Shown: piece by piece, positions 1,567 to 31,465 of the stretch | Position numbering within the stretch: the stretch's first letter is position 1 | Layout of the letters: every line of letters starts with the position of its first letter | Source of the DNA: an uncultured Anaerolineaceae bacterium | GTDB taxonomy: Bacteria; Chloroflexota; Anaerolineae; Anaerolineales; UBA4823 | Reading direction: 5' to 3' | Assembly (NCBI GenBank): GCA_964629965.1 | Contig: CAZVRZ010000061.1 | Coordinates: 1-31,465, forward strand | Length of the DNA stretch: 31,465 nt | The notes under the pieces: model-generated | Database searches by the model: none | Told to the model about the DNA's origin: nothing | The model's input: the letters and a program-made list of their open reading frames with translations, nothing else | Translations under genes and position numbers: made by a program

Positions 1567-1601
1567 GCGTAGAGGCTGGAGATATAAGGAAGGATTGGAT
1601 A

Positions 1602-3404
1602 GTGGAGTTCCATGCGGTAAATTCCCTGGTAAACGTAGCTATGGGACGCGAGCCGGCTGATTTGGTGATCCGCAACGGTAAATGGGCTTGCGTACAATCT
1701 GGCGAAGTTGTCGCCCAGACCGATATTGCTATCAAGGATGGACGCGTTGCCCTGGTTGCCTCTGATGCGAGGTATACAGTGGGAGATAAAACCCGGGTGA
1801 TCCAGGCCGATGGCCGTTATCTGGTTCCCGGCTTGTTGGATGCCCACATGCATGTTGAGTCGGGTATGCTTACCATCACTGAGTTTGTGAGGGCAGTGAT
1901 CCCCCATGGAACTACGGGCATGTTCATCGATCCGCATGAGATTGCCAATGTGTTCGGTCTACAGGGTGTGCGCCTGATGGTTGATGAGGCTCGCCACCAA
2001 CCGATCCACGTATGGGTGCAGGCTCCTTCGTGCGTGCCGTCTGCGCCCGGATTGGAAACTCCGGGGGCAGAGATCCGTCCCGAGGATGTGGCCGAGGCGT
2101 TGAGTTGGCCGGGGATCATTGGCCTGGGCGAAGTGATGAATTTTCCAGGTGTGGCTGCTAACGAAGCCTGGCTGCACCAGGAACTGGCTGCAACGCGCAA
2201 GGCCGGCAAGGTGATTGGCGGGCATTATGCTTCGCCGGACCTGGGTCGCCCTTTTGCCGGTTATGTGGCCGGCGGTGCCCAGGACGATCACGAAGGCACT
2301 CGCCTCGAAGATGCCGTTGCCCGCATTCGCCAGGGCATGAAGGTGATGATGCGCTTTGGCTCTGCCTGGCATGATGTGGCCGAGCAGGTGCGGGCCGTGA
2401 CAGAATTGGGCCTGGATCCCAGGCATTTCTTATTATGCACCGACGATTCGCATTCGTACACGTTGGTCAAAGAAGGTCATGTCAACCGTGCGCTGCGCGT
2501 GGCGATTGAGAGCGGTGTACCGCCGATGACTGCCCTGCAAATGGCTACTTTGAATACGGCTGAACATTTCCATGTCGACGGAGATATAGGCCAGATTGCC
2601 CCCGGGCGCTTTGCGGATATTCTGATCATGTCTGAATTGCCGGGAGTGGCGGCCAACCCGCCGGAGATGGTCATTGCAAAAGGAACCGTGATTGCCAAAT
2701 CTGGAAGGGTTTTGGTGGATCTGCAGACTTTTACTTATCCAGATTGGGTGCGGCAGTCTGTGCGGTTGGCTCGAGAAGTCAATACCGGCGATTTCCGCCT
2801 GGCAGTGAGCGGCGACCAGGCGCAGGTCTCTGCCAACGTGATCGGGATCATTGAAAACCAGGCTCCCAACCAGCGCCTGAGATATACTTTACCGGTGATG
2901 GAGGGGGAGGTGCAGGCAGATCTGCGCCAGGACATTGCTAAGATCGCTTTGCTTGACAGGCATCGGGGCGCCGGTGTGGTGCAGGTTGGCCTGGTGCACG
3001 GCTTCGGTTTCACGGTTCCATGCGCGGTTGGAACCACCGTGGCTCACGATTGCCACCAGATGGTAATCGTAGGGACGGATGACGGCTGCATGGCGATGGC
3101 TGCCAATGAGCTAAAACGCATTGGGGGCGGCCAGGTTGTGGTGAAAGAAGGCGAAGTGATTGGCAAGATCGAACTTCCCATCGCGGGGTTGATGTCTTCT
3201 GGCCGCGCCGAAGAAGTGGCCCGCCAGGCAGCTACCATCCTGGATGGATTCCGGCTGTGTGGCTGCTCATTGAATAACCCCAACATGCAGCTTAGTTTGA
3301 GTGCTTTACCGGTCATCCCTGACCTGCGCATCACAGACTTGGGTTTGGTGGATGTAAACCGGTTCTCATTGATCCCTGTAATAGAAAGTGAAAACATACC
3401 ATGA
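1602..3404 (+). CDS. Adenine deaminase family amidohydrolase (COG1001, Ade-like)
   Basis: ORF frame is open from 1428, but the likely start is GTG 1602, preceded by AGGAAGG (1586-1592). Translation has ADLVIRNGKW...DIAIKDGRV, then LLDAHMHVESGM (the HxH...E metal site of adenine deaminase) and a long C-terminal domain (~600 aa total), as in Ade. Substrate specificity is not provable from sequence. Confidence 0.7.
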   Translation: MEFHAVNSLVNVAMGREPADLVIRNGKWACVQSGEVVAQTDIAIKDGRVALVASDARYTVGDKTRVIQADGRYLVPGLLDAHMHVESGMLTITEFVRAVIPHGTTGMFIDPHEIANVFGLQGVRLMVDEARHQPIHVWVQAPSCVPSAPGLETPGAEIRPEDVAEALSWPGIIGLGEVMNFPGVAANEAWLHQELAATRKAGKVIGGHYASPDLGRPFAGYVAGGAQDDHEGTRLEDAVARIRQGMKVMMRFGSAWHDVAEQVRAVTELGLDPRHFLLCTDDSHSYTLVKEGHVNRALRVAIESGVPPMTALQMATLNTAEHFHVDGDIGQIAPGRFADILIMSELPGVAANPPEMVIAKGTVIAKSGRVLVDLQTFTYPDWVRQSVRLAREVNTGDFRLAVSGDQAQVSANVIGIIENQAPNQRLRYTLPVMEGEVQADLRQDIAKIALLDRHRGAGVVQVGLVHGFGFTVPCAVGTTVAHDCHQMVIVGTDDGCMAMAANELKRIGGGQVVVKEGEVIGKIELPIAGLMSSGRAEEVARQAATILDGFRLCGCSLNNPNMQLSLSALPVIPDLRITDLGLVDVNRFSLIPVIESENIP

Positions 3405-4138
3405 CAACGGCAAAAACACCCATCGCGTATAAGCTTTATGAAAATTTACGGCGTATGATCGCAGGACTGGAAACAGGCCAACGATTACCATCTGAGCCAG
3501 AACTGGCGCGCAAGTTAGGAGTTTCCCGGGCCACGCTGCGGGAGGCCATGCGCACATTTGAAACGCAAGGCGTGATCTACCGGCGCCAGGGCTCGGGGAC
3601 ATTTGTCTCGCGGCCGCCCCAGGTGATCCAGAGCGGCCTGGAGATGCTGGAAAGCATCGAGAGGTTGGCAGAACGGATTGGATTGCCGGTTTCCTTGGGA
3701 GAGAATATGGTCTCGCCGGACAATGCCAGCGAGGATGATGCTTTGGCTTTGGGCTGCCAGCCTGGCGATAAAGTGCTGCGGGTGTCGCGGGTCATCCTGG
3801 CGGAAGGGCATCCGGCGGCATACTTGATCGATGTTTTGCCCGGAGACGTTTTGGCTCCTGCCGAGTTGGAGAAGGGTTACAAAGGTTCGGTTTTAGATAT
3901 TATCCTGAAGCGCGGCTCGCCGGTATTGAGCTCCTCACGCTGCGAGATCAAAGCAACAACCGCCTCGCCGGACATTGCTCGGGCGATGGGAATCCAGCGC
4001 GGCGATGTGTTGCTGTGCTTTGTGGCATACCTGTACACCATTGAGGGGCGCGTGGTAGATTACTCTTACAGCTATTTCTTGCCGGGACATTTTCGTTTTC
4101 ATGTTGTCCGGCGAATTGAAACCGGCTATTCCGGTTGA
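3401..4138 (+). CDS. GntR family transcriptional regulator, HutC subfamily (wHTH + UTRA effector domain)
   Basis: N-terminal winged-HTH signature (RLPSEPELARKLGVSRATLREAMRTFETQGVIYRRQGSGTFV), ~245 aa with a C-terminal UTRA-like domain. Its ATG overlaps the stop of the upstream gene (ATGA coupling). Confidence 0.8.
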   Translation: MTTAKTPIAYKLYENLRRMIAGLETGQRLPSEPELARKLGVSRATLREAMRTFETQGVIYRRQGSGTFVSRPPQVIQSGLEMLESIERLAERIGLPVSLGENMVSPDNASEDDALALGCQPGDKVLRVSRVILAEGHPAAYLIDVLPGDVLAPAELEKGYKGSVLDIILKRGSPVLSSSRCEIKATTASPDIARAMGIQRGDVLLCFVAYLYTIEGRVVDYSYSYFLPGHFRFHVVRRIETGYSG

Positions 4139-4169
4139 TTGGTGAAGTGTTTGATGACTGAGTGGATTC

Positions 4170-4200
4170 CAGGGATTAATGATCCCTGTTCTCTAATTTC
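4170..4200 (+). terminator. Hairpin CAGGGAT-TAATG-ATCCCTG followed by a T-rich tract (TTCTCTAATTTC): possible intrinsic terminator or attenuator between the regulator gene and the carbamoyltransferase genes
   Basis: Perfect 7-bp stem with a 5-nt loop read from the sequence. The T-tract is imperfect and the stem short, so termination strength is uncertain. Confidence 0.35.
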
Positions 4201-4235
4201 AAAATCATGTAGTTTCAAACTTGGAGGATCAATTT

Positions 4236-5186
4236 ATGCGTAGTTTTATGGGACGTGATATTCTGTCGTTGAAAGAATTTGGTAGAGAAGATTACTATCG
4301 GGTGTTCGAAGTGGCAGACGACCTGGCGCCGATCGCCCGCAACCGCCGGAACAGCGACTTGTTGAAAGATAAGACCCTGGTTACCGCTTTTTATCAGCCC
4401 AGCACCCGCACCCGCCTGGCGCACGAGGCTGCCATGCATCGTTTGGGAGGGCATGTGCTGGGCTTTTCGGATGCCAAGATGACGCGCGCCGGCGATTTTT
4501 ACCAGGAATCGATCAAAGATACGGTGCGTATGTTGGAATTCTATGGCGATGTCTTGGTGATGCGCCATTTTCAGCAAGGAGCGCCCCATGAAGCGGCGCG
4601 TTGGTGCAGTATCCCGGTGATCAATGCCGGCGACGGTTGGGGAGAGCATCCCACCCAGGTACTGACGGATATGTACACAATCCTCAATGAGAAGGGCGGG
4701 CTGGATGGACTGAATTTCTTGTTGATTGGTGATATGCGCATGCGCACCATGCATAGTATCTCTTATGCCATGACCCAATTTGATATTAATGCGTTTTATG
4801 TGGCTCCTCCCGATATGCGCCTGACGGATGACTTCAAGCAGGAGCTCCGCTCGCTGAACCTGAATTTCAAGGAAATCGAGCATGTCGAAGAGGCCATTGC
4901 CGAGGCAGACGTCATCTATATGGAACCGGTGGTGCAGCCCGATTACACCAAATCCCGCGATGAGCGCACAGGGTCAGAAGGCCAGACTCCCGCGAATTAC
5001 AAGGTTACGAAAGAACTGCTGCGAAAAGCACGCCAGGATGCCATTGTGCTGCATTCACTGCCGCGCATGGACGAGCTGCCTGCGGAAGTAGATGACACCC
5101 GCCACCAGCGTTACTGGATCGAGGCGTTTAACGGCGTTGTGGTCCGCATGGCTTTATTGGCTCTGGTCTTAGGGGCGGTTGAGTGA
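4236..5186 (+). CDS. Carbamoyltransferase, aspartate-carbamoyltransferase-like (PyrB-like paralog; substrate uncertain)
   Basis: Start is ATG 4236 with GGAGGA 6 nt upstream. The ORF track's 4221 is an in-frame upstream TTG. STRTR carbamoyl-phosphate motif, HPTQ motif and a C-terminal HSLPR (ATCase-type HxLP) motif. N-terminus DILSLKEFGREDYYRVFEVADDL resembles PyrB. Confidence 0.8.
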   Translation: MRSFMGRDILSLKEFGREDYYRVFEVADDLAPIARNRRNSDLLKDKTLVTAFYQPSTRTRLAHEAAMHRLGGHVLGFSDAKMTRAGDFYQESIKDTVRMLEFYGDVLVMRHFQQGAPHEAARWCSIPVINAGDGWGEHPTQVLTDMYTILNEKGGLDGLNFLLIGDMRMRTMHSISYAMTQFDINAFYVAPPDMRLTDDFKQELRSLNLNFKEIEHVEEAIAEADVIYMEPVVQPDYTKSRDERTGSEGQTPANYKVTKELLRKARQDAIVLHSLPRMDELPAEVDDTRHQRYWIEAFNGVVVRMALLALVLGAVE

Positions 5187-5218
5187 GATGCTCACTATAG
5201 TTTTTCAAGGAGAAAACG

Positions 5219-6208
5219 ATGCAAACAGACCTTCGTAATCGAGATTTGATCGGCGACCTTGACTTTTCGAAAGAAGAAGTTGAAACGGTTTTGGAGGTGG
5301 CCTTTGACCTGAAGCGCAAGCGGGCCTTGGGCGAACCGCATGCTTATTTACGCGACAAGGTGCTGGCGATGTTGTTCTTCTTTAGCAGCACCCGCACGCG
5401 CGGCTCGTTCGAAGCGGGCATGGCGCAATTGGGCGGGCACGCGGCCTTTATCGAAAGCAAAACTACTCAGATTGCACATGGCGACACGCCGAAGGAAATC
5501 GGCGAGATCTTTGGACGGTATTACGATGGTATTGCCATCCGCCACTGCGATTGGGGCGTGGGCAATGGCTACCTGAACGCGGTTGCCAGGGCGGCACGGG
5601 TGCCGGTGCTCAATATGCAATGTGATATCTATCACCCTTTCCAATGCCTGGCTGACTTGATGACGATCATTGAGAAGAAGGGCCGCGATTTGCGGCGGAA
5701 AAAGATGGTTGTATCGTGGGCGTATGCGGCCTCGTACCAGAAGCCCATGTCGGTGCCGCAGAGCCTGATCCTGCAAATGCCGCGCTTTGGTCTGGATGTA
5801 GTGTTGGCGCACCCGCTCGAATTCCGCCTAATGCCTGACATTATGGACCAGGCCCGCGAGCAAGCGCGCAAGTACGGTACGGGCTTTGAAGTGATCTCGG
5901 ATCCGGATGGTATGGAAAAAGCTTTTAAGGATGCCGATATCGTTTATGCCAAGTCCTGGGGCGCGATGGTACATACGCCCGACTCGGATGAAGGCGCCAG
6001 GATCATCAAGAAATATGAAAGCTGGATCACAGATGAGCGCAAAATGGCCGCGGCGAAAACAGATGCTATTTACATGCACCCGCTGCCGGCGGATCGCAAC
6101 ATTGAAGTAACCGATGCAGTGATCGACGGGCCTCATTCTGTGGTCTATGATGAAGCTGAGAATCGTATGCACGCTCAAAAAGCTGTCATGGCTTTGACCA
6201 TGCGCTAA
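5219..6208 (+). CDS. Carbamoyltransferase, OTCase-like fold with atypical motifs (HPFQ, HPLP instead of HCLP); unknown specificity
   Basis: AAGGAG sits 8 nt upstream of ATG 5219. SSTRTRGSFE carbamoyl-phosphate motif, HPFQCLADL and C-terminal MHPLPADR. The N-terminal DLIGDLDFSKEEVETVLEVAFDLKRKRA resembles OTC/PTC-type enzymes, but the second-substrate motif is non-canonical. Confidence 0.8.
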   Translation: MQTDLRNRDLIGDLDFSKEEVETVLEVAFDLKRKRALGEPHAYLRDKVLAMLFFFSSTRTRGSFEAGMAQLGGHAAFIESKTTQIAHGDTPKEIGEIFGRYYDGIAIRHCDWGVGNGYLNAVARAARVPVLNMQCDIYHPFQCLADLMTIIEKKGRDLRRKKMVVSWAYAASYQKPMSVPQSLILQMPRFGLDVVLAHPLEFRLMPDIMDQAREQARKYGTGFEVISDPDGMEKAFKDADIVYAKSWGAMVHTPDSDEGARIIKKYESWITDERKMAAAKTDAIYMHPLPADRNIEVTDAVIDGPHSVVYDEAENRMHAQKAVMALTMR

Positions 6209-6219
6209 AGGAGTGAAAT

Positions 6220-7185
6220 ATGTCCGAACAGGCGCGTAAATTTGCGGTAGTGGCTATCGGTGGCAATTCTTTGATCAAGGATAAGCAGCACCAGACGGTG
6301 GAAGATCAATACACGGCTTCTAAAGAAACCACATTTTACATCGCGGATATGATCGAAGCCGGCTGGGATGTTGCTGTCACCCATGGGAATGGCCCACAGG
6401 TGGGTTTTATCCTGCGGCGATCAGAGATTGCTTACCGGGTAGAGGGGATGCACGAAATCCCCCTGGATGTTTGCGGTGCGGACAGCCAGGGAGCGATTGG
6501 TTATGCCTTGCAACAAACCCTGCAGAACGAGCTTTACCGGCGGGGCATCAAGAAAAATGTGGCGACGGTCATAACCCAGGTATTGGTAGATCGAGATGAT
6601 CCGGCATTTAAGAACCCCACCAAACCGATCGGCGGCTTTATGGACCAGGCCGAGGCGCAGCGCCGTGCCAAGGAAATGGATTGGGCGGTCGTTGAAGACG
6701 CCGGCCGCGGCTGGCGGCGTGTGGTGGCCTCTCCGCAGCCCAAAGAAGTCGTTGAGCTGGATACGGTGAAAGCTTTGCTGCAGAGCGGCGTGGTGGCAAT
6801 TGCCGCCGGCGGTGGGGGCATCCCGGTCATTGACGTCGGCGAGGGCGAGTATCGTGGCACGGCTGCGGTGATCGATAAAGACTTTGCCAGTTCCCTGCTG
6901 GCCCAGGCGATCAGAGCCGATCTTTTCCTCATCTCCACTGCGGTGGAGAAGGTGGCGATCCATTTTGGATCGCCACAGCAGCAGTGGTTGGATCGAATCA
7001 CACTGGCGCAAGCTAAGCAGTACCTGGCAGAGGGCATCCATTTTGCCAAGGGTTCCATGGCGCCGAAGATCGAAGCGATCATCTGGTTCTTGGAAGCAGG
7101 TGGAAAGCAAGCCTTGATCACCAATCCCCCCAACATCAGCAAAGCATTGCGCGGCGAGACGGGTACCTGGATCGTTAATGAGTAG
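6220..7185 (+). CDS. arcC: Carbamate kinase
   Basis: AAGGAG RBS. VVAIGGNSL N-terminal motif and THGNGPQVG motif characteristic of carbamate kinase (amino-acid kinase family). 321 aa. Confidence 0.85.
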   Translation: MSEQARKFAVVAIGGNSLIKDKQHQTVEDQYTASKETTFYIADMIEAGWDVAVTHGNGPQVGFILRRSEIAYRVEGMHEIPLDVCGADSQGAIGYALQQTLQNELYRRGIKKNVATVITQVLVDRDDPAFKNPTKPIGGFMDQAEAQRRAKEMDWAVVEDAGRGWRRVVASPQPKEVVELDTVKALLQSGVVAIAAGGGGIPVIDVGEGEYRGTAAVIDKDFASSLLAQAIRADLFLISTAVEKVAIHFGSPQQQWLDRITLAQAKQYLAEGIHFAKGSMAPKIEAIIWFLEAGGKQALITNPPNISKALRGETGTWIVNE

Positions 7186-7242: not shown

Positions 7243-7373
7243 ATTGTGCATGGTAGATGCTGTGTGATTGGCCGAAAATTATTTAACTAAATAGATGCGT
7301 AAAATCGGCCAATCACTTGAGCAAACCGCTATGTTGGCTGTAAAGTTGTTCAAAAACATTTAGCGATTTGCTA
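7243..7373. repeat. Copy 1 of a ~125-bp structured repeat: two tandem hairpins (GTGATTGGCCGA-29nt-TCGGCCAATCAC; AGCAAACCGCTA-30nt-TAGCGATTTGCT)
   Basis: ~92% identical to 24016-24143. The perfect 12-bp inverted repeat was read directly. Located in the 340-bp intergenic region upstream of the BMP/ABC transporter operon. Confidence 0.8.
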
Positions 7374-7524
7374 ACATGTATGGAGCGCTATAGAGAGGCT
7401 CTGCCCCGGAGGCGTTTTCACGAAAGGAGGTGCCCTCAACCTGTTTGCCGTTTTGCATTGATGGAGAATGCTAGAAATGTCTGGTTTGAATCGACCAATT
7501 TAGATCATCTTGATGGAGGAGTAA

Positions 7525-16254: not shown

Positions 16255-16965
16255 TTGAGGAAAAATTTGGTTCCCACCGCCTCGTTGGGGAGTGCGGCCA
16301 TCTTCCTGGTTGGATTGAGCCTGGCTTGTGGCATTGTCCCTCAGGCGCTTTTGCCTAATTCCACACCGACCATCACAACCGTATTCACCGGTACTGCCTT
16401 GCCCACCTCGACTGCCATGATCATGGCTGCGGTCATGCCCACCTTGACTCTCACCCAGGCGAACACGCCTTCGCCAACATTTACCGACACGACCGCGCCG
16501 CCCACGGCAACTGCTACGAAGACTGCCACCGTGGCGCTGACGCCTCCTCCCGAAGGTTTCCTGGCGTGGGATATCTATCCGGACAACGGCGCCCTGACCG
16601 AACAATTGTTTGCGCATACGCAGCTTGCCCTGGCGATGGGTCTGATGCCTTATGTTGAATTTACTGCCACCTGGTGCCCGGCCTGCCAGGCTATTGAAAG
16701 AAGCCTGTCTGATGGGAATGAATTGATGGTGGATGCTTGCCAGGGCACTTATATCATCCGGGTGGATGTGGATGCCTGGGATTGGAACGAGCGGGAAAAG
16801 GCTGGCTTCGAAGTGGAATTTATTCCCATCTTCTACTTGCTCGATCGAGAAGGCCAGCCAACCGGAAACACGATCGGGGGCGACGCCTGGGGTGACAATA
16901 TCCCTGCGAACATGGCCCCACCTTTAAAGGAATTCTTTCAGGCCCATGGTGTGATTGGCCGATAG
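16255..16965 (+). CDS. Secreted or membrane-anchored thioredoxin-fold protein (WCPAC active site) with a Thr/Pro-rich linker
   Basis: N-terminal signal/anchor, a ~70-aa low-complexity T/P/A-rich region, then FTATWCPACQAIE, a CxxC thioredoxin-like motif. TTG start with AGAGGGA upstream. Confidence 0.6.
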   Translation: MRKNLVPTASLGSAAIFLVGLSLACGIVPQALLPNSTPTITTVFTGTALPTSTAMIMAAVMPTLTLTQANTPSPTFTDTTAPPTATATKTATVALTPPPEGFLAWDIYPDNGALTEQLFAHTQLALAMGLMPYVEFTATWCPACQAIERSLSDGNELMVDACQGTYIIRVDVDAWDWNEREKAGFEVEFIPIFYLLDREGQPTGNTIGGDAWGDNIPANMAPPLKEFFQAHGVIGR

Positions 16966-16987
16966 TCATTAAACGAAAAGGAGATCT

Positions 16988-18451: not shown

Positions 18452-21400
18452 AAACTGGATGGATCGATTAACTACAGAGCTATTTGATATTACTCGCCTG
18501 GAACGATACGTGGGCCAGGCTGTTTTTGAGCGCGGCCAGACTTACTACCAGCAAAAGCGCGTCGAGATCGATTATGTAGATCCGAAGTATGCCAGTTGCA
18601 CGGTGGTAGGCCGCAGTGGGGTTTATGATGTTCGCATCGAATTAGATCGCGGCACTTTGCTGTTCTATTGCGATTGCCCGTTCGCTGCGGATGGACGGAT
18701 TTGCAAGCATATCGTGGCCTCTTTCATAGCGGTCAAGAAGTCTTTGCAGACGAGCCACGCCACCCGCTGGCAGACCCATCTCTCCAAAGTGATCCAGTCT
18801 GCGCAGAGTGATGCGACCAAGTCCTCCGCCAATGTTATAGATCATGGTAGTACAGATCACCGTTTGCAGTACCTGTTGTTCTTTAGCTTGCAGCACGAAA
18901 GCGGATTCACCTGGAAGCTGACGCCATACCAGGTGTTAGCCAGCGCGTTACCTGCCGATGTGCGCAGTACGCTTGTTCCAGGGCGGGTCACGCCCGAACA
19001 GATCGAACAGGCCCTGAGCTATTCGGCGTCAGTGCGGCAGCCGGCTGGCCGCCTTGATTCGCGCGGCTGTATCAACGCCGGCGATGCCGTGGTCAACATG
19101 GCCAACCTGTTGATCACGCGCTCGTATGTGTACTACACCTTCATCCCCTTGGGAGATTTCTTGACTTTCTTGCAGGGCGGCCAGGCCTACATTTACCTGG
19201 GTGATGAGCGCAAGCCTTTGAAAACGCGTTTGCAGATGGCGCCAGAAAAAGGCCGCTTGAAGATCAACATGCACCGCGAGCCAGATGGGGTACACCTGAC
19301 GGCCAGCCTGGTTGCGGGCGGCCTAAGCATAGCGATCCAGCAGGAAGATGGCGGGGAGAGCGCCCGGGGCGGGGAAAGCGCCCGGGGCGGGAATGGCGCC
19401 CGGGACAGTGAGAATGCCCAGGTTGGAGAAAACCTCCACGAGGGGGATGCTGCCCGCATGCAAATCCTGTCGGTGTCGCCGCTGTGGGTGCTGGCGGATC
19501 GCTGGCTGGTGCAGCTAGATGAAGAGAATGTGACGGCTGTTTTTCGCACCTTCATGGATGTGCCTGAGCTGATAATCCCTGCCGCAGAGCAGGAAGAATT
19601 CCTGGAACAGTACTACTTGCCTTTGGCCTTGAGCGCCGACCTGGAAGGCGACGCGGTTTCCTGGGAAAGCGTGCAAGACGCCAAGCCGGTGGGACAGTTG
19701 TATCTAAGCGAAAATCGCAAAGGCGAGCTGCAGGTTCAGCTTCGCTTTAATTATGCCGGGCAGGTGGTCAGTTATGAGCCGCAGCTGCCCGTGGAAAGCA
19801 TACAGCGCTTGCCTGGAGAGTGGAAGCTGGTGCGCATCCAGCGCGATCCTACCCTGGAGCAGCTAATGTTCCAGAACCTGGCCTCGCACGAATTTGGTTT
19901 AAAGCGTTCTACAAGCCCTTCTTCGCAAAATCAACTGACACTGCGGGCGCGGATTGAGCTGATAGATTTTCTGATGAAATATGTTCCTCGCCTGGTAAAA
20001 GCCGGTTTTGAGATCTTTGGCGAAGAACAGTTGAAGACCGCGCGGGTCAATCGTCACCAGCCGACGATCTCGTTCCACATTGCTACAAACATCGATTGGT
20101 TCGATGTGAAAGCGGCGGTGAACTTTGGCGAGATCGAAGTCTCGCTCAAGGAAATTCGCCGCGCTTTACGCAAAAAGGAACGCTATATCAAGCTGGCGGA
20201 TGGCACGATCGGCGAGATACCGTCAGATTGGCTGAACCGTTACAAACATTTGTTTGCCCTGGGCGAGGAGACCGGCGACAGCTTGCGCCTCTCCAATTAC
20301 CATGTCACCTTGCTGGATCAGCTCCTGTCGGATGCCGATCGTGAGCGGGCGGGCGATGAGTTTCAAAAACGCCTGGACCGGCTGCGTAATTTCGATGGCA
20401 TCACCCCCAAACCGCTGCCGGCGGGCTTCTTGGGCGAGCTGCGTCCTTACCAAAAATCGGGCTTCGATTGGCTCCACTTTTTGCATGAGTTTAAGTTCGG
20501 CGGTTGCCTGGCGGATGACATGGGCCTGGGTAAAACGGTGCAGGTGCTGGTGTTCCTGCTCTCTCTGCGCGAGCAGCAGCATTCCCCAAAAGCCGACCTG
20601 ATTGTGCTGCCGCGCTCGCTGCTGGTCAACTGGCAGCGTGAAACGGCCCGCTTCACGCCATCACTGCGCGTGATGGAGTATTTTGGCAACTTGCGAGATA
20701 AGGACACTTCTATTTTTGACCAGTACGACCTGGTGGTCACCACGTACGGCACCATGCTGCGGGATGTGGAACTGCTGCGGGAATATCCATTTCACTATGT
20801 TGTGCTGGATGAGTCCCAGGCGATCAAAAATCCAGTGGCGCAAACCACCAAAGCGGCGCGTTTGCTGCGCTCGGAGCACCGCCTGGCGCTGACGGGTACA
20901 CCGGTGGAAAACTCAACCTTGGAGCTCTGGTCGCAGTTCTCGTTCCTGAACTCCGGTTTGTTGGGCAACCTGGAATATTTCCGCGACGAGTTCACCAACC
21001 CGATCGAACGAAGAGGCAGCGAGCAGCAGGCGCAATTCTTGCGAAAGTTAGTGTACCCTTTCATCTTGCGGCGCACGAAAGCTCAGGTGGCTCCCGACTT
21101 GCCGCCGCGCACTGAGCGGGTGGTTTACAGTGACATGGAAACGGCTCAGCGCAAGATGTATAACCGCACCCGGGATTATTATCGCGGGATGTTGTTGGGC
21201 ATGCTGGAAAACCAGGGCCTGAACGATTCTCGCATGAAGGTCCTGGAAGGCTTGCTGCGCCTGCGCCAGATATGCAATCACCCCGCGCTGGTAGAACGTG
21301 AGTTCCGCGGCGATTCGGCCAAGTTCGATCTGCTGATCGAAACACTGGAAACGCTGAGAGCGGAAGGGCACAAAGCTCTGGTGTTTTCGCAGTTCGTCGA

Positions 21401-23885: not shown

Positions 23886-24015
23886 AGTATCCTCCTGTGG
23901 TCAGTAACTCTACTGATTATACATCAAGCGATTGGTTTGCCCGAATCAGAAAAATTCCATAGATAATATGGGGGATGCAAAGCGCCGATAGATTTAGAAT
24001 AGATATCAATCACCA

Positions 24016-24143
24016 TGGTGCATGGTGCTATGTGATTGGCCGAAAGTTATTTAACTAAATGGATGCGTAAAATCGGCCAATCACTTGAGCAAACTGCTAT
24101 GTTGGCTGTAAAGTTGTTCAAAATACTTTTAGCGGTTTGCTTA
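24016..24143. repeat. Copy 2 of the ~125-bp twin-hairpin repeat (GTGATTGGCCGA-29nt-TCGGCCAATCAC; AGCAAACTGCTA-30nt-TAGCGGTTTGCT)
   Basis: ~92% identical to 7243-7373. In the divergent intergenic region between the CrtI-like gene and the flotillin gene, ending ~30 nt before the flotillin RBS. Confidence 0.8.
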
Positions 24144-24175
24144 GAAAGATCAATCGCATCACAAAGGAGTTTTGT

Positions 24176-26194: not shown

Positions 26195-26234
26195 GAGCTG
26201 TCTGGCGGTGGCTGCCAGACAGCTCTTTGTTTCC
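26195..26234 (+). terminator. Rho-independent terminator: GAGCTGTCTGGC-ggtggct-GCCAGACAGCTC followed by TTTGTTTCC
   Basis: Perfect 12-bp GC-rich stem and a T-tract 19 nt after the flotillin stop, read directly. Confidence 0.8.
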
Positions 26235-26284
26235 TTACGGATCACTGTTTCCGAAAGGATCACTCCTTTGATGGTATAGACCGG

Positions 26285-26382: not shown

Positions 26383-27642
26383 ATGACTTTGAAAGGAACA
26401 TCGAACTTTACAAAGAAGAGCTTATCTATCTTGGGGCGTTCACTGGCGTTCTTGATGGGCTTTTTGTTATGTTTGCCGGTGATCCTGCTTCCCCTTTCCA
26501 CTGCTGTTCCGGCATGGATTTGGATTCCATTGGCGCTCATCAGTGCTGCTCTGATCATACTGCAGTTCCGGTTGACTCCAGCCTGGCGTGGAATCGCAGT
26601 AAGCCTGACCGGACTGATCCTGGTGAGCCTGCTCGCGGTGATCTTTTCGCAAACATTTGCCGCTACGCCTGCTATCCTGGATGCAGACGGCAAACCAATC
26701 CCTGGTTCCATCGCGACGCTGGAAAAGGTAACCCTGAATGGAACGGAGCAATGGATCACCATTCGCGGCCGAGATATCACCAAACCGATCCTGCTTCATC
26801 TTGGCATGGGCGGGCCGGGCGGCGGCGGGTTTTCTACGCGCACGCTTTTCGAACCGCTGGAAGAACATTTCGTGGTGGTGAGTTGGGATGAGCCCGGTAC
26901 GGGAAAGTCGTACAATGCGGTTCCCATCTCAGGCCTTACCCCACAAAGGTTCGTTGAAGACGCCCACGCCCTGACGTTGTACCTGCAGGAACGCTTTCAC
27001 CAGGACAAAATTTACGTGTATGGCGTCTCCTGGACGAGCATTCTGGGTATCTGGTTGGTGCAGCAATATCCAGAGTCCTATTATGCCTATGTTGGCAACG
27101 GGCAAATGGTGAATACCACCGAGAATGACATCATGGGTTATGAACTAGCGCTGCAGTACTCGCTTGAACGCGGCGATACCAAAACGGTAGAAGCCCTGCG
27201 CCACAACGGCCCTCCGCCTTACGGTGGAGAAGACTTGCTCAGTAATTATGTACTCTATTTGGATATCTTGAACGAAATTATGCAATCGCCGCACTATACT
27301 CTGGTCGTGCCGATCATTCCTTTCCTGGCGCCGGAGTATGGATTGGTGGACAAGATCAATCACACGCGCGGGCTGGTGGCATCATTCGAGGTCGTGTACC
27401 CGCAGTTAAGCAACCTCGATTTCAGGACCCAGGCTGCCAGGCTCGAAGTGCCCGTCTATATCTTTGCCGGACGGGACGATGTGAATGCCATGTCGTCACT
27501 GGTCCAGGAGTATTACAACCTCCTTGAGGCACCCCATAAGGAGCTCGTCTGGCTGAATGGCGGGCATGGCTTGGGCAGTGCCAACCTGGGCCAGTTCGTG
27601 GATGTGATGCTTAACAACGTGTTGGCGCAAACTCAGCCCTGA
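26383..27642 (+). CDS. Membrane-anchored alpha/beta hydrolase (proline-iminopeptidase / S33-like)
   Basis: GGAG RBS. Three N-terminal TM helices, then HLGMGGPGGGG (an HGGPG-type oxyanion loop) and a GVSWT nucleophile elbow. 419 aa. Confidence 0.65.
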   Translation: MTLKGTSNFTKKSLSILGRSLAFLMGFLLCLPVILLPLSTAVPAWIWIPLALISAALIILQFRLTPAWRGIAVSLTGLILVSLLAVIFSQTFAATPAILDADGKPIPGSIATLEKVTLNGTEQWITIRGRDITKPILLHLGMGGPGGGGFSTRTLFEPLEEHFVVVSWDEPGTGKSYNAVPISGLTPQRFVEDAHALTLYLQERFHQDKIYVYGVSWTSILGIWLVQQYPESYYAYVGNGQMVNTTENDIMGYELALQYSLERGDTKTVEALRHNGPPPYGGEDLLSNYVLYLDILNEIMQSPHYTLVVPIIPFLAPEYGLVDKINHTRGLVASFEVVYPQLSNLDFRTQAARLEVPVYIFAGRDDVNAMSSLVQEYYNLLEAPHKELVWLNGGHGLGSANLGQFVDVMLNNVLAQTQP

Positions 27643-27925
27643 TGTGCCCGGCGGCCGCGCCCAAATGGGGAAAATGAGGGCTGGGTGCCAGCACTGAGAT
27701 AGCGCAGTAAGTCGACTTGCATTTTTACCCCTTTTGGATCCCAAAAGGCATCCCGAGCCGCATATTCACATGCCATTAGTGCAGAATTTGCCGTTTATTG
27801 CCTCGTTTTCAGACAAGTTTATTTTAGGCAAACTCGTTCAACCCATTTCTCTGGATTGACCTCCGCTGTGCATCCCCTTTCCTTCTACTATTGGACTTAC
27901 TGCGGAATCCCGCACTAAGAATGAT

Positions 27926-27954
27926 TTGACAAATTCTCCAAAAGCGTTTACAGT
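27926..27954 (+). promoter_or_regulatory. Candidate sigma70 promoter (TTGACA-N17-TACAGT) for the hypothetical-folP pair
   Basis: Consensus -35 and an acceptable -10, ~75 bp upstream of ATG 28030. Immediately followed by the 17-bp motif copy. Confidence 0.35.
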
Positions 27955-27963
27955 ACACAGACG

Positions 27964-27996
27964 GTACAGAGCAGCGTGACGAATAGAGCGTTGTGA
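27964..27996 (+). repeat. ~1.4 copies of the 17-bp direct-repeat motif (…ACAGAGC AGCGTGACGAATAGAGC GTTGTGACC), related to the tandem array at 29467-29522
   Basis: 16 of 17 nt identical to unit 3 of the downstream array. Positioned between the candidate -10 and the RBS of the 28030 gene. Confidence 0.6.
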
Positions 27997-28029
27997 CCTC
28001 AAAATCCCTAATTTTCAAGGAGTGTGTCT

Positions 28030-28452
28030 ATGTCCGATATTGAGATCAAGCCGTTGAATTGGAAACCCGAGCCGGGGATCGGATATACTGTGGAACGCAG
28101 ATCGGATGGTGGAATGAATGTGGTCTTCACAGATTCGTTATCCCAAACGATTGCCCATTGGCGGCAATTTTCACTGGAACACTTGTATGATTCGGATCGC
28201 CTGACGCGCAACCTGTATGATTTACGCCAGATCGAAGATGTCTCCGAAGATGCCCTGCGATTTGCGATGGAAGTCAACACCGATCCTTCTGTGCGCAATA
28301 TCCGCCTGGCGGTAGTGGTTTCTAGCCCTAAAGTGCGGCAGTCGCTGGTCAAGCTTGCTGACCTGACTGCCCCGGGCGGCGTAGATATGGCGCTTTTCTC
28401 CAGTATCGATGAGGCGGAAGCCTGGTTGAACCGCCCGCTGACCTTGGTATAG
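28030..28452 (+). CDS. Hypothetical protein (141 aa)
   Basis: AAGGAG 7 nt upstream of ATG 28030. Coding-like composition. No recognisable motif. Confidence 0.5.
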   Translation: MSDIEIKPLNWKPEPGIGYTVERRSDGGMNVVFTDSLSQTIAHWRQFSLEHLYDSDRLTRNLYDLRQIEDVSEDALRFAMEVNTDPSVRNIRLAVVVSSPKVRQSLVKLADLTAPGGVDMALFSSIDEAEAWLNRPLTLV

Positions 28453-28505
28453 AGAGGCGGGCGACATAGATCGTCGCTCAACCAAGATCCGATAGGGATA
28501 TTTCT

Positions 28506-29429
28506 TTGAATTCTGTGTTAAAGATCGGCCCCCATTTGCTTGAATGGGGCCGCCGCACGTATGTGATGGGTATTTTGAACCTCACCCCAGACAGTTTCTC
28601 GGGAGACGGTCTTCTGTCTACGCCGGCGGGGGAGGGGGATGGATTGGAGCGCGCCCTGGAACAGGCGCGGCGTTTTGTGGCTGAGGGGGCTCACATCCTG
28701 GATGTGGGAGGAGAGAGCACCCGTCCCGGTGCACAGCCTGTATCGGCTCAAGAGGAAATAGAACGGGTGATCCCGGTCATTCGCCTGCTGGCGGTGGAGT
28801 TGAATACCTTGATTTCGGTTGACACGTACCGGGCAGAGGTTGCAGAGGCTGCCCTGCAAGCAGGCGCCCATATCGTGAACGATGTGTGGGGGCTGAAGGC
28901 AGATCCGGCGCTGGCGCAGGTGGCTGCCGATCACCAGGCGCTGGTTATCTTGATGCATAATCGCAGCTCGTGGGCGCATGCTGAGATCAAAGAGCGCCTG
29001 GGGGGGCGGTATGTGGGCATCCCTTACGAGAACTTGCTCGAAGATGTGCGCCGCGAGCTGTTGGAAAACGTGGCCCTGGCAAGGGCTGTCGGTATCCCTG
29101 ATGAGCATATCGTGCTCGATCCGGGCATCGGTTTTGGAAAATCTGTCGAGCAGAACCTGGAATTGATCGACCGGCTGGGAGAAATTCGGGCTTTGGGCTA
29201 CCCGGTCTTGTTAGGTCCTTCCCGAAAGTCTTTTATCGGCTACACCTTGGATCTTCCCCCCGACCAGCGCCTGGAAGGCACGGCTGCAGCCGTTGCGGTG
29301 GGCATTGCCCGGGGCGCAGATATCGTTCGGGTGCATGATGTGGCTGCCATGGCGCGCGTCGCTCGCATGAGCGATGCCATTGTGCGCAGACCGATTTGCC
29401 AAAACCGAGAAGAGAGCGCGAATAAATGA
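28506..29429 (+). CDS. folP: Dihydropteroate synthase
   Basis: VMGILNLTPDSFSGDG and DVGGESTRPGA pterin-binding motifs, and C-terminal ...RVHDV. The start (TTG 28506 or GTG 28515) is uncertain. Confidence 0.85.
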   Translation: MNSVLKIGPHLLEWGRRTYVMGILNLTPDSFSGDGLLSTPAGEGDGLERALEQARRFVAEGAHILDVGGESTRPGAQPVSAQEEIERVIPVIRLLAVELNTLISVDTYRAEVAEAALQAGAHIVNDVWGLKADPALAQVAADHQALVILMHNRSSWAHAEIKERLGGRYVGIPYENLLEDVRRELLENVALARAVGIPDEHIVLDPGIGFGKSVEQNLELIDRLGEIRALGYPVLLGPSRKSFIGYTLDLPPDQRLEGTAAAVAVGIARGADIVRVHDVAAMARVARMSDAIVRRPICQNREESANK

Positions 29430-29466
29430 GCGAGAAGAGTCGAAGCAGCGGCTTGAAATACCAAAG

Positions 29467-29522
29467 ATCGTGACGAACAGAGCATCGTGGCGATCAGAGC
29501 ATCGTGACGAATAGAGCATCGG
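29467..29522 (+). repeat. Tandem direct repeats, 3.3 x 17 bp (ATCGTGACGAACAGAGC / ATCGTGGCGATCAGAGC / ATCGTGACGAATAGAGC / ATCGG), upstream of acnA
   Basis: Read directly: perfect 17-bp periodicity with 2-3 substitutions per unit. Confidence 0.85.
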
Positions 29523-29582
29523 AGAAGCGAACCACGAAAGTGATCCGCGCAACTTAAGAGATGAACAAAGGATGAAATAAGC

Positions 29583-31465
29583 ATGGCACAAGATCTATTC
29601 AACGTAATCGATACGTTACGCACTTCTCACCACACCTATACATATTTCCGGCTGGAGCACCTGGAGCGAGATGGCCTGACCCGGCTCAGCCGTTTGCCTT
29701 TTTCGATCCGAATCTTATTGGAAACGCTGGTGCGCCAGTGCAACCAGGGCGAGATCACCCGCCAGGATGTGATCAACCTGGCCCAATGGCAGCCTGTGGC
29801 TGCCCAGCGCGTCTCCATGCCCTTCCGCCCAGCGCGGGTGGTGATGCAGGATTTCTCCGGCGTTCCGGCAGTGGTGGACCTGGCCGCGATGCGTTCTGCC
29901 ATGGCGCGCCTGGGCGGCGACCCGCGCAAGATCAATCCGCTGGTGCCGGTGGATCTGATGATCGACCATTCGGTGCAGGTGGATTTTTTCGCTAATACCG
30001 ATGCGCTGAACCGCAATACCGAGCTGGAGTTCCAGCGCAACCGCGAGCGTTATGAGTTCTTGCGCTGGGGGCAAAAGGTTTTCGATAATTTCCGCGTGGT
30101 TCCCCCGGCAACAGGCATCATCCACCAGGTGAACCTGGAATACCTGGCGCAGGTGGTGTGTGTCGAGGGCGATCCAGATCAGCGCGGCGTAGCCTTCCCT
30201 GATACGGTGGTGGGCACCGATTCGCATACCACCATGATCAACAGCCTGGGGGTGGTTGGCTGGGGTGTGGGCGGGATCGAGGCGGAAGCGGTCATGCTGG
30301 GACAACCGATGGATATGCTCATTCCAGATGTTATTGGCGTCAAGCTGCATGGGCGCATGCCGGAGGGTGTCACCGCCACCGACCTGACCCTGACGATCAC
30401 CCAGATGCTGCGCAAGAAGGGCGTGGTAGATAAGTTTGTGGAATATTACGGTCCCGGGTTGGCTTCCATCTCTTTGCCCGACCGCTCTACGATTGCCAAC
30501 ATGGCGCCCGAATACGGCGCCACCATGGGCTTCTTCCCGGTCGATGATGAAACGCTGCGTTATTTGCGTTTGAGCGGGCGTTCTGATGAACTGGTGGAAT
30601 TGATCGAGGTCTATTGCAAGGCGCAGGGTGTGTTCCGCACGGATGAAACACCCGATCCGGAGTTCACCGATACGCTGGAACTGGACCTGGGCTCGATCGA
30701 GCCCAGCCTGGCCGGTCCCAAGCGCCCACAGGATCGCGTCCCGCTGCGTGAAATGAAGCGTAATTTCCAGGCTGCCCTGGTCGGCCCGGTAAAGGAGCGC
30801 GGCTACGGGCTGACAGAAGAAGCCTTGAACAAACAGGGTGTTGTTGGCACAAATGGTTACAGCCTGCCCATCTCACACGGAGCAGTAGTGATTGCTGCCA
30901 TTACTTCTTGTACGAACACTTCCAATCCATCGGTGATGATCGCCGGTGGCCTGCTGGCCAAGAAAGCCGTTGCGAAAGGATTGAAAGTCCAGCCCTATGT
31001 AAAAACCAGCCTGGCGCCCGGTTCGCGGGTGGTGACGGAGTACTTGCAGCAAGCCGGCCTGCTCGAACCGCTGGCTGCCCTGGGCTTCAACGTGGTGGCT
31101 TACGGCTGCACCACCTGTATCGGCAATTCCGGCCCTCTGCCCGGCGATGTGGCCAAGGCCATTGCCGGCGCAGACCTGGTAGCTGCGGCGGTGATCTCGG
31201 GCAACCGCAACTTTGAAGGCCGGGTGCATCCTCATGTGCGCGCCAATTACTTGGCTTCGCCTCCTCTGGTGGTGGCTTATGCCCTGGCGGGCACGGTGAA
31301 CATCGATCTGGTGAATGAACCGCTGGGCAACGATCGGGATGGGCAGCCGGTCTACCTGCGAGACATCTGGCCCTCGCAGCAAGAAGTGCAAGAGGTGATC
31401 CAGGCCTCTGTTCTGCCGCAACAATTCCAGCAGAAATATGCCAACGTGTTCGATAGCAACGAGAT
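29583..31465 (+). CDS. acnA: Aconitate hydratase A (5' partial; continues past the window end)
   Basis: AGGA RBS. Open frame of 627 codons to the end of the window. Aconitase motifs [54 protein letters not shown]. Absent from the ORF track only because no stop falls inside the window. Confidence 0.9.

What the first reader, a model, noticed from the sequence alone, without database searches (positions are those of the whole stretch)
29467..29522. Iteron-like 17-bp tandem direct repeats upstream of acnA, with a related copy in the leader of the hypothetical-folP pair
Three and a third head-to-tail 17-bp units (consensus ATCGTGACGAAYAGAGC) lie ~60 bp upstream of the aconitase start. A 16/17-identical unit with part of a second lies between the candidate -10 and the RBS of the gene at 28030. 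A shared direct-repeat motif in the leaders of two adjacent transcription units suggests a common regulator binding cooperatively to direct repeats, or a small dispersed repeat family. The motif does not resemble Fur, IdeR/DtxR or PerR palindromes, so classical iron regulation of acnA is not indicated. A 17-bp spacing (~1.6 helical turns) is unusual for OmpR/PhoB-type direct repeats.
Basis: seen in the sequence. Interest (0 to 1): 0.5.

Follow-up and report, generated by a model that had tools for sequence, protein, structure and literature searches.

The report
Private 17-bp repeats before aconitase
A real 17-base sequence repeated head-to-tail sits between the folP and aconitase genes of an uncultured Chloroflexota bacterium, with a near-identical copy at the start of the same gene cluster. 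No relative or public collection has it, so it is a lineage-private repeat, possibly a protein-binding site, and not a new kind of element.

Summary
Tandem Repeats Finder reports 3.2 copies of a 17-bp unit at 29467-29521. A 22/23-identical copy lies at 27967-27989, flanked by decayed partial units, just downstream of a promoter-like site for the gene at 28030. Both are far beyond chance: 5 motif hits against 0.13 expected.

- **Absent elsewhere.** There are no further copies in the 31-kb window. None were found in 122 kb of related Chloroflexota loci, nor above chance in the genome, metagenome, viral or plasmid collections.
- **Not conserved.** The nearest relatives (AcnA 77-78% identical) keep the order STAS-fold protein, folP, acnA. 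Their folP-acnA spacers (27-112 bp) are unrelated in sequence and share no motif with the leader.
- **No close relatives.** Five window proteins checked are each the only member of their 90%-identity cluster, so close-range comparison is impossible.
- **No RNA signal.** There is no Rfam match and no folding signal.
- **No origin features.** There is no Rep gene, DnaA box or AT-rich tract.

The folP-acnA spacer has no promoter-like or terminator-like site, so the two sites probably lie in one operon, not two units.

Best guess (0.4): an operon-specific direct-repeat operator. Nearly as likely: a functionless product of slippage and gene conversion. Interest is low.

The parts
29467..29483 (+). 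Array unit 1, ATCGTGACGAACAGAGC
   Evidence: 26.3 bits
29484..29500 (+). Array unit 2, ATCGTGGCGATCAGAGC. It differs from unit 3 at three positions (7, 11, 12).
   Evidence: 23.2 bits
29501..29517 (+). Array unit 3, ATCGTGACGAATAGAGC
   Evidence: 26.4 bits
29518..29522 (+). Partial fourth unit, ATCGG. The ATCG repeated at the end of the array is the microhomology expected of slippage duplication.
   Evidence: the slippage reading is inference
27960..27972 (+). Degenerate leading unit of the upstream site, GACGGTACAGAGC. It carries a 1-nt insertion relative to GACGAACAGAGC.
   Evidence: D3 covers CAGAGC
27973..27989 (+). Full unit of the upstream site, AGCGTGACGAATAGAGC, 16/17 identical to unit 3. 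With the preceding CAGAGC it is 22/23 identical to 29495-29517.
   Evidence: (24.8 bits)
27990..27997 (+). Partial trailing unit, GTTGTGAC (6/8 to ATCGTGAC, with GTGAC in register)
27926..27954 (+). Promoter-like site TTGACA-17 nt-TACAGT (10/12). It places the upstream repeat site at about +1 to +37 of the transcript.
   Evidence: a consensus match only, and the transcription start is inferred
28030..28452 (+). Gene for a 140-aa STAS/SpoIIAA-fold protein, first gene after the upstream repeat site. It is not a DNA-binding fold.
28515..29429 (+). folP (dihydropteroate synthase). The start is GTG at 28515 as called in public assemblies; TTG at 28506 is also possible.
29430..29582 (+). 153-bp folP-acnA spacer that holds the array. 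It has no promoter-like or terminator-like site.
29583..31465 (+). acnA (aconitate hydratase), 5' part. It runs off the end of the window.

Best explanation
The repeat is a lineage-specific cis-element of a single hyp-folP-acnA operon. It most likely acts as a multi-site operator for a sequence-specific DNA-binding protein that binds 17-bp units head-to-tail.

Proposed mechanism, all of it inferred:
- One strong unit with two weak neighbours overlaps the transcription start (about +1 to +37). Binding there would block initiation or early elongation of the whole operon.
- The three-unit array 1.5 kb downstream, in the folP-acnA spacer, would act as an auxiliary or looping operator, or as a roadblock. 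That would let aconitase output be set separately from the folate genes.
- The array itself grew by slippage duplication of a single ancestral unit, using the ATCG microhomology at the unit boundary.

Shown: the repeats, their positions, their shared orientation, their restriction to this operon within the window, and their absence from relatives. Inferred: the promoter, the single transcript, the binding protein and the direction of regulation.
For: 1. The motif occurs only at two non-coding sites of one gene cluster, and both sites point the same way as the genes. There is nothing else in 31 kb, which includes about ten other intergenic regions. A randomly dispersed family would rarely place two loci 1.5 kb apart and none elsewhere.
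2. The upstream site starts immediately after a 10/12 sigma-70-like promoter, the classic position for a repressor operator.
3. Three units (units 1 and 3 and the upstream unit) differ from each other by only 1-2 of 17 positions. Unit 2 has 3 changes, and the flanking units of the upstream site have decayed to about 50-70%. Decayed neighbours next to near-perfect units suggest that some units are maintained by selection or conversion.
4. There is no similarity beyond the repeat core between the two regions. What is shared is the motif itself, not a duplicated segment.
5. RNA-level alternatives get no support: no Rfam family, folding z-scores of -0.27 and +0.44, and different folding registers at the two sites.
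6. Contiguous or closely packed direct repeats bound cooperatively by proteins are a known design. One example is the four 17-bp direct repeats bound by ParR in Clostridium perfringens parC (PMC9426499). MetJ boxes, omega-repressor heptads and lambda 17-bp operators are further examples from my own knowledge.
Against: - No candidate binding protein was found. The adjacent gene product has a STAS fold, not a DNA-binding fold. The only regulator in the window is a GntR/UTRA protein 24 kb away. The region downstream of acnA is outside the window.
- The motif is absent from all available relatives. None of them shares any motif between the two corresponding regions.
- 22/23 identity between the two sites is higher than is usual for independent sites of one regulator. 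It fits recent copying or gene conversion at least as well.
- The variable positions (2, 7, 11, 12) do not define a core-plus-spacer pattern.
- A 17-bp period (about 1.6 helical turns) fits no well-known family of direct-repeat binders.
- Most short intergenic tandem repeats in bacteria have no demonstrated function (own knowledge).
- The promoter is only a consensus match. The scan found 2 sites in the region against 1.5 expected.
Confidence: 0.4

Rival explanations
1. A functionless local repeat. A 17-nt stretch in a fast-evolving intergenic spacer was amplified by replication slippage between ATCG microhomologies. The copy in the leader 1.5 kb away results from ectopic gene conversion or template switching. 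Nothing binds it and it has no effect beyond lengthening the spacer.
For: - The array ends in a 4-5 nt partial unit (ATCGG), the usual footprint of slippage duplication.
- The folP-acnA spacer is highly variable among relatives (27, 103-112 and 153 bp, with unrelated sequences). Relatives carry their own small repeats there: an 8-nt unit three times and CTGATTACT twice in L101/L102.
- The motif is private to this lineage.
- 22/23 identity between the sites fits recent copying.
- The same window holds other intergenic repeats, so this genome tolerates or spreads them.
Against: - Copying a roughly 23-40 nt patch between two spacers of the same operon, in the same orientation, is not a common neutral event.
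- The upstream site has its own decayed flanking units in register (GTGAC). It is therefore not a simple recent patch.
- If the family were old and neutral, three units would not be expected to stay within 1-2 changes of each other.
Confidence: 0.3
2. One locus pair of a genome-wide family of short dispersed tandem repeats. This would be like the mycobacterial interspersed repetitive units in behaviour: selfish or neutral, sitting in spacers within operons and co-oriented with the genes.
For: - Both sites are non-coding, lie within or ahead of an operon, and are co-oriented with the genes.
- Both are tandem.
- An unrelated, roughly 130-nt hairpin-bearing repeat occurs at three further intergenic sites in the same 31 kb. 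This shows that dispersed intergenic repeats exist in this genome.
Against: - Only two loci were found, 1.5 kb apart, and none in the other ~30 kb. Random dispersal would rarely give that pattern.
- No copies appear in any public collection beyond chance: 83 single hits against roughly 140 expected in the genome collection, 6 in metagenomes and 0 in viral contigs.
- The unit is not palindromic and has no folding signal.
- The unit length is far below the 40-100 bp of the mycobacterial units (own knowledge).
Confidence: 0.12
3. An RNA-level element. Both sites are transcribed on one hyp-folP-acnA mRNA, in the 5' leader and the last intercistronic spacer. They would serve as unstructured repeated binding sites for an RNA-binding protein or a small RNA that controls stability, processing or translation of the flanking cistrons.
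For: - Both sites have the same orientation relative to transcription.
- No terminator-like or promoter-like site lies between folP and acnA, so both sites are probably on one transcript.
- The region is purine-rich and predicted to be unstructured, as a single-strand binding platform would be.
Against: - The sites end about 20 and 45 nt upstream of the Shine-Dalgarno sequences, so they do not occlude them.
- There is no Rfam match.
- There is no complementary partner of 12 nt or more in the window.
- No conserved structure is shared between the sites.
- No known RNA-binding protein motif (TRAP, CsrA, Hfq ARN, iron-responsive element) fits (inspection, own knowledge).
Confidence: 0.1
4. Iterons or a partition centromere of an integrated or former plasmid-like replicon.
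For: The shape resembles one: 17-bp direct repeats in a cluster, plus a further copy at a promoter. ParR of Clostridium perfringens binds four 17-bp direct repeats.
Against: - No Rep, Par or other mobile-element gene is present. The flanks are a STAS-fold protein, folP and acnA, in an order conserved on relatives' contigs of up to 379 kb.
- No DnaA-box-like site lies within 27000-31465, and there is no AT-rich tract (GC 0.49-0.54).
- There is no meaningful plasmid match.
- GC skew does not change sign across the window.
Confidence: 0.02

Closest known systems
Tandem operator arrays bound cooperatively by small repressors (MetJ met-boxes, omega-repressor heptads of pSM19035, lambda OR/OL 17-bp operators) - own knowledge
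   Same: Several adjacent copies of one short sequence at or just after a promoter. The number of copies and their closeness to consensus would set affinity. A second cluster lies at a distance, as with lambda OL and OR or lac O1 and O2.
   Different: - Here the units are 17 bp, contiguous and non-palindromic.
- No cognate protein is known.
- The element is not conserved in any relative.
- Binding is untested.
ParR-parC plasmid centromeres with 17-bp direct repeats (Clostridium perfringens pCW3 family, PMC9426499) and plasmid iterons
   Same: Direct repeats of 17 bp in a small cluster.
   Different: - The setting is chromosomal and housekeeping: folP and acnA, in a gene order conserved in relatives.
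- There are no par or rep genes, no DnaA boxes and no AT-rich region.
- The sequence is unrelated (AAACATCACAATTTTAC in pCW3).
- There is no plasmid match.
Mycobacterial interspersed repetitive units and other VNTR loci - own knowledge
   Same: Tandem copies of a unit located in spacers within operons, co-oriented with the flanking genes, at more than one locus, and with no proven function.
   Different: - The unit is 17 bp, not 40-100 bp.
- Only two loci are known.
- Copy-number polymorphism could not be assessed: three assemblies are identical.
Spo0A '0A box' TGNCGAA of endospore-forming Firmicutes - own knowledge; a lead, not a test
   Same: Three of the four full units contain TGACGAA, and unit 2 has TGGCGAT. 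Spo0A also binds tandem direct boxes near transcription starts.
   Different: - Spo0A is known only from Firmicutes, and this organism is a Chloroflexota.
- 0A boxes are spaced about 10 bp apart, not 17.
- A 6-specified-base match inside a 17-mer is weak evidence.

Membership tests
Plasmid iterons / replication origin | Initiator (Rep) gene next to the repeats | tested here: not met
   The flanking genes encode a STAS-fold protein, FolP and AcnA. No Rep-like domain was found in the Pfam scans of 25 window ORFs.
Plasmid iterons / replication origin | AT-rich unwinding region and DnaA boxes beside the repeats | tested here: not met
   GC is 0.49 in the spacer and 0.54 in the array. No DnaA-box-like 9-mer (up to 1 mismatch) lies in 27000-31465. 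GC skew does not switch sign.
Plasmid iterons / replication origin | Carried on a plasmid or other mobile replicon | tested here: not met
   The hyp-folP-acnA order is conserved on relatives' contigs of up to 379 kb. The only plasmid matches are short hits inside coding genes at E about 0.9.
OmpR/PhoB-type response-regulator direct repeats | Half-sites repeated every 10-11 bp (or 21-22 bp), on one face of the helix | tested here: not met
   The period is exactly 17 bp with no internal sub-repeat.
Contiguous tandem operators (MetJ / omega / ParR type) | Head-to-tail units without spacers, overlapping or adjoining a promoter | tested here: inconclusive
   Contiguity is met. The upstream site adjoins a promoter-like consensus match, but that promoter is only predicted. 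The larger array has no promoter-like site next to it.
Contiguous tandem operators (MetJ / omega / ParR type) | A cognate DNA-binding protein that binds the units | not testable with these tools
   No candidate is encoded nearby. The downstream flank and the rest of the genome are unavailable.
MIRU / VNTR-like dispersed minisatellites | Tandem units in intergenic or intercistronic spacers, co-oriented with the genes | tested here: met
MIRU / VNTR-like dispersed minisatellites | Many loci across the genome | not testable with these tools
   Only 31 kb of this genome is available, and it holds 2 loci. The genome is not in the species collection.
MIRU / VNTR-like dispersed minisatellites | Copy number differs between strains | tested here: inconclusive
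   Two independent sample assemblies are identical to the window over 27858-30247. No other strains exist in the collections.
REP/BIME or MITE-type dispersed repeats | Palindromic unit or terminal inverted repeats that form a stable hairpin | tested here: not met
   Folding z-scores are -0.27 and +0.44. No inverted-repeat pair involving the sites was reported.
Structured cis-regulatory RNA (riboswitch, leader, protein-binding hairpin) | Match to a described family, or a stable structure shared by the copies | tested here: not met
   No Rfam match at the gathering score or at E up to 10. There is no folding signal, and the two sites fold in different registers.
Iron-responsive-element-like aconitase binding site | CAGUGN hexaloop on a 5-bp upper stem with a bulged C below it | tested here: not met
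   Only one hairpin forms, between units 1 and 2, with an 8-nt loop ACAGAGCA and no bulged C. The leader site does not form it.
Spo0A 0A-box sites | TGNCGAA heptamer | tested here: met
   TGACGAA is present in units 1 and 3 and in the leader unit. Unit 2 has TGGCGAT. This is a weak match.
Spo0A 0A-box sites | Spo0A encoded by the organism | not testable with these tools
   The genome is unavailable. The organism is a Chloroflexota, and Spo0A is known only in Firmicutes (own knowledge).

The most novel reading that the evidence does not exclude
The repeats act on the RNA. One copy in the 5' leader and three copies ahead of acnA on a single hyp-folP-acnA transcript would form an unstructured, repeated landing platform for an RNA-binding protein. 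That protein could be aconitase itself in its cluster-free, RNA-binding form. Aconitase would then regulate its own synthesis and couple it to the folate genes through a recognition element unlike the classical iron-responsive hairpin. The evidence does not exclude this: both sites are co-oriented and probably co-transcribed, and the unit contains CAGAGC, one base away from the CAGUGN loop. Nothing positively supports it either.
Probability: 0.04. Interest if true: 0.6.

Novelty: new member of a known kind. Interest (0 to 1): 0.2.

Why it matters
If the units are an operator, they would show how one uncultured Chloroflexota lineage rewired an inherited folate-aconitase operon. A private regulator site would sit at the promoter and again in front of the last gene. 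That is a small example of fast regulatory turnover in a phylum where almost no transcription-factor sites are known.

If the units are only a slippage product, the finding has no consequence beyond serving as a strain-typing marker.

Either way it is a local, lineage-private feature. Nothing found here suggests a new class of element or bears on a long-standing question.

Tried and rejected
- **Known RNA families.** No Rfam match in the whole window at gathering scores or in the local region at E up to 10.
- **RNA structure.** Folding both regions gave no signal.
- **Exact 17-mer in 185,579 species genomes.** This gave 83 single-copy hits in unrelated phyla, at or below the roughly 140 expected by chance. 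The three hits in Chloroflexota were inspected. Two look like chance matches inside coding-like sequence, and one is a lone copy in an AT-rich spacer. The source genome is not in that collection.
- **Degenerate 1.3-unit pattern.** JGI metagenomes gave 6 isolated hits. One of them (L093) has two 17-bp units, but these are part of a long GC-rich palindrome in an unrelated organism. Viral contigs gave 0 hits.
- **Plasmid BLAST of the array.** Only matches inside coding genes at E about 0.9.
- **Orthologous regions.** Loci for the closest homologues of the STAS-fold protein (73% or less) and of AcnA (78% or less) carry no motif, no conserved spacer and no shared leader/spacer motif.
- **Closer strains.** Exact-protein look-ups and cluster membership found only two identical short contigs, and the five proteins in the collection are all singleton clusters. 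One look-up failed because the ORF start differs from the gene call on record.
- **Extended homology between the two regions.** None beyond the 23-nt core, so a duplicated promoter is not supported.
- **Promoter inside or after the array, and ECF or sigma-54 spacing.** Checked by the scan and by eye. Nothing convincing.
- **Antisense partner in the window.** None of 12 nt or more.
- **The adjacent small protein as the binder.** Its model (pLDDT 85) has a STAS/SpoIIAA fold, not a DNA-binding fold, and it has no sequence match in the Protein Data Bank.
- **Motif resemblances checked by inspection.** LexA, Rex, RipA, ArcA, DnaA and parS: none fits.

Full report
**What is there**

The window is a 31,465-bp contig of an uncultured Chloroflexota bacterium, probably Anaerolineales. 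The homologues of its proteins that carry source names come from that group.

At 29467-29522 the plus strand reads ATCGTGACGAACAGAGC / ATCGTGGCGATCAGAGC / ATCGTGACGAATAGAGC / ATCGG. Tandem Repeats Finder reports period 17, 3.2 copies and score 89, the best score in the window. Successive units agree at 28 of 34 positions. No dinucleotide shuffle of the window produced a three-copy tandem of period 12-30 above 0.79.

The array lies in the 153-bp spacer between folP (ends at 29429) and acnA (ATG at 29583). Both genes are confirmed by Pfam.

A second site at 27967-27989 matches 29495-29517 at 22 of 23 positions (score 41, reached by 0 of 300 shuffles). It is itself a short array:
- a degenerate unit at 27960-27972;
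- the full unit at 27973-27989;
- GTTGTGAC at 27990-27997, with GTGAC in register.

Allowing three mismatches, the motif has 5 hits against 0.13 expected. In a weight-matrix scan the four real units score 23-26 bits and everything else is at shuffle level.

**Context**

The upstream site begins right after a promoter-like TTGACA-17-TACAGT at 27926-27954. It ends 20 nt before the AAGGAG ribosome-binding site of a 140-aa gene (28030-28452).

That protein belongs to a large Chloroflexota family of 2,504 homologues. Its model (pLDDT 85) has a STAS/SpoIIAA fold, so it is not a DNA-binding protein.

The folP-acnA spacer contains no promoter-like or terminator-like site. In a relative, acnA follows folP after only 27 bp. 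The simplest reading is one hyp-folP-acnA operon, with one repeat site at about +1 to +37 and the other between the last two cistrons. The promoter and the single transcript are inferences.

**Comparison with other sequences**

- The exact 17-mer gave 83 single hits in 185,579 species genomes, scattered over unrelated phyla. About 140 are expected by chance from the size of the collection. The Chloroflexota hits were inspected and are isolated.
- A degenerate pattern covering 1.3 units gave 6 isolated hits in JGI metagenomes and none in viral contigs.
- Plasmids gave nothing meaningful.
- The nearest homologue of the STAS-fold protein is 73% identical, and the nearest AcnA 78%.
- Five window proteins looked up in the 15-billion-protein collection are each the sole member of their 90%-identity cluster.
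- The only other contigs with the same genes are identical over 27858-30247.

Close-range comparison and polymorphism analysis are therefore impossible with public data.

In the more distant relatives the gene order is kept. The spacers are 27 bp or 103-112 bp, unrelated in sequence, and partly carry their own small repeats and a GC hairpin. The motif is absent from 122 kb of fetched loci, which include all the relatives' loci. No relative shares any motif between its leader and its acnA spacer. The element is private to this lineage.

**What it is not**

- *A known or structured RNA.* There is no Rfam match. Folding z-scores are -0.27 and +0.44, and the two sites fold in different registers. 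The one hairpin that forms has an 8-nt loop ACAGAGCA, not an iron-responsive-element loop.
- *An origin or centromere.* There are no Rep or Par genes, no DnaA boxes, no AT-rich tract, no skew switch, and the housekeeping gene order is conserved.
- *A duplicated promoter segment.* The flanks share nothing beyond the 23-nt core.
- *A palindromic REP- or MITE-type repeat*.
- *A target of an antisense partner in the window.* No complementary match of 12 nt or more exists.

**What it most likely is**

Two readings remain close.

The operator reading (0.4) rests on four points:
- The motif is restricted to two co-oriented non-coding sites of one operon.
- One site adjoins the promoter.
- Only the motif is shared between the two regions.
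- Three units stay within 1-2 changes of each other, while unit 2 has 3 changes and the flanking units have decayed.

This suggests an operon-specific protein-binding element, a head-to-tail operator whose array grew by slippage. Contiguous or clustered direct repeats bound cooperatively are a known design. Examples are ParR on four 17-bp repeats (PMC9426499) and, from my own knowledge, MetJ, the omega repressor and the lambda operators.

Five points count against it:
- No binder is in sight.
- There is no conservation in relatives.
- The identity between sites is higher than is usual for independent regulator sites.
- The variable positions define no core-and-spacer pattern.
- The 17-bp period matches no known family.

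The neutral reading (0.3, plus 0.12 for a genome-wide dispersed family) rests on the slippage footprint (terminal ATCG), the extreme variability of this spacer among relatives, and the presence of other intergenic repeats in the same window.

An RNA-level role is possible but unsupported (0.1). The iteron reading is effectively excluded (0.02).

**Verdict**

This is a real, statistically solid but lineage-private short tandem repeat with a second copy in the same operon. It is a new member of a known kind: an intergenic direct repeat that is either a putative operator or a minisatellite. Its function cannot be decided from the available sequence. Interest is low.

Noticed in passing
window 7243-7378 and 24011-24146; partial third copy 16945-16982: A repeated intergenic element of about 130 nt, 96% identical over a 98-nt core. 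It has two hairpins: a perfect 12-bp stem GTGATTGGCCGA...TCGGCCAATCAC, and AGCAAACYGCTA...TAGCGRTTTGCT. It lies upstream of three unrelated genes: a Bmp/PnrA ABC binding protein, a Band-7 protein and a PLP enzyme. It has no Rfam match and no promoter-like site. It looks like a REP/MITE-type or small-RNA-type dispersed element, and at three loci in 31 kb it is more abundant here than the 17-mer.
   Followed up: partly
window 28030-28452 and relatives L086, L089, L090, L099-L102: The 140-aa STAS/SpoIIAA-fold protein (2,504 homologues, many invariant residues) sits immediately upstream of folP in every relative examined that shows the downstream gene, and directly after folK (HPPK) in L086, L087 and L090-L092. 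It could be an unrecognised folate-pathway component or a regulator. It has no sequence match in the Protein Data Bank.
   Followed up: partly
window 26195-26264: A strong terminator-like hairpin GAGCTGTCTGGC...GCCAGACAGCTC followed by TTTGTTT lies after the Band-7 gene. It is followed directly by an 18-bp unit repeated 2.1 times (TGTTTCCTTACGGATCAC / TGTTTCCGAAAGGATCAC), upstream of the alpha/beta-hydrolase gene.
   Followed up: no
window 27858 (start of L001 and L002): Two independent Logan assemblies of this organism, from different sequencing runs, both begin at exactly window position 27858, about 70 nt upstream of the promoter-like site. This suggests a branch in the assembly graph there, from a repeat or a strain-level rearrangement. 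In relatives the gene upstream of hyp is folK or a large CarboxypepD_reg protein, not the hydrolase seen here.
   Followed up: no
L101 3393-3500, L102 3398-3500: The folP-acnA spacer of the nearest relatives has its own small direct repeats (CGACGGAC / CACGGAC / AACAGAC, and CTGATTACT twice) and a GC-rich hairpin GGGCGCAGCG...CGCTGCGCCC. This spacer seems prone to lineage-specific repeats.
   Followed up: partly
L093 900-1000 (minus strand): A JGI metagenome contig from an unrelated GC-rich organism has two tandem 17-bp units CGTRACGATCAGAGCCG that resemble the window's unit. They form the start of a long perfect palindrome (CAGAGCCGCGACCGTGAGGGAGCGG...CCGCTCCCTCACGGTCGCGGCTCTG). The resemblance is probably coincidental.
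   Followed up: partly
window 19350-19404: An 18-bp unit repeated 3.1 times in frame (GGCGGGGAAAGCGCCCGG) inside the 1,130-aa SNF2-family helicase gene. It encodes a short peptide repeat.
   Followed up: no
window 178-7185: A gene cluster encoding an amidohydrolase, an adenine deaminase, a GntR/UTRA regulator, two carbamoyltransferase-like proteins and a carbamate-kinase-like protein. It is followed by a Bmp-type ABC transporter, and resembles a purine or ureide catabolic island.
   Followed up: no
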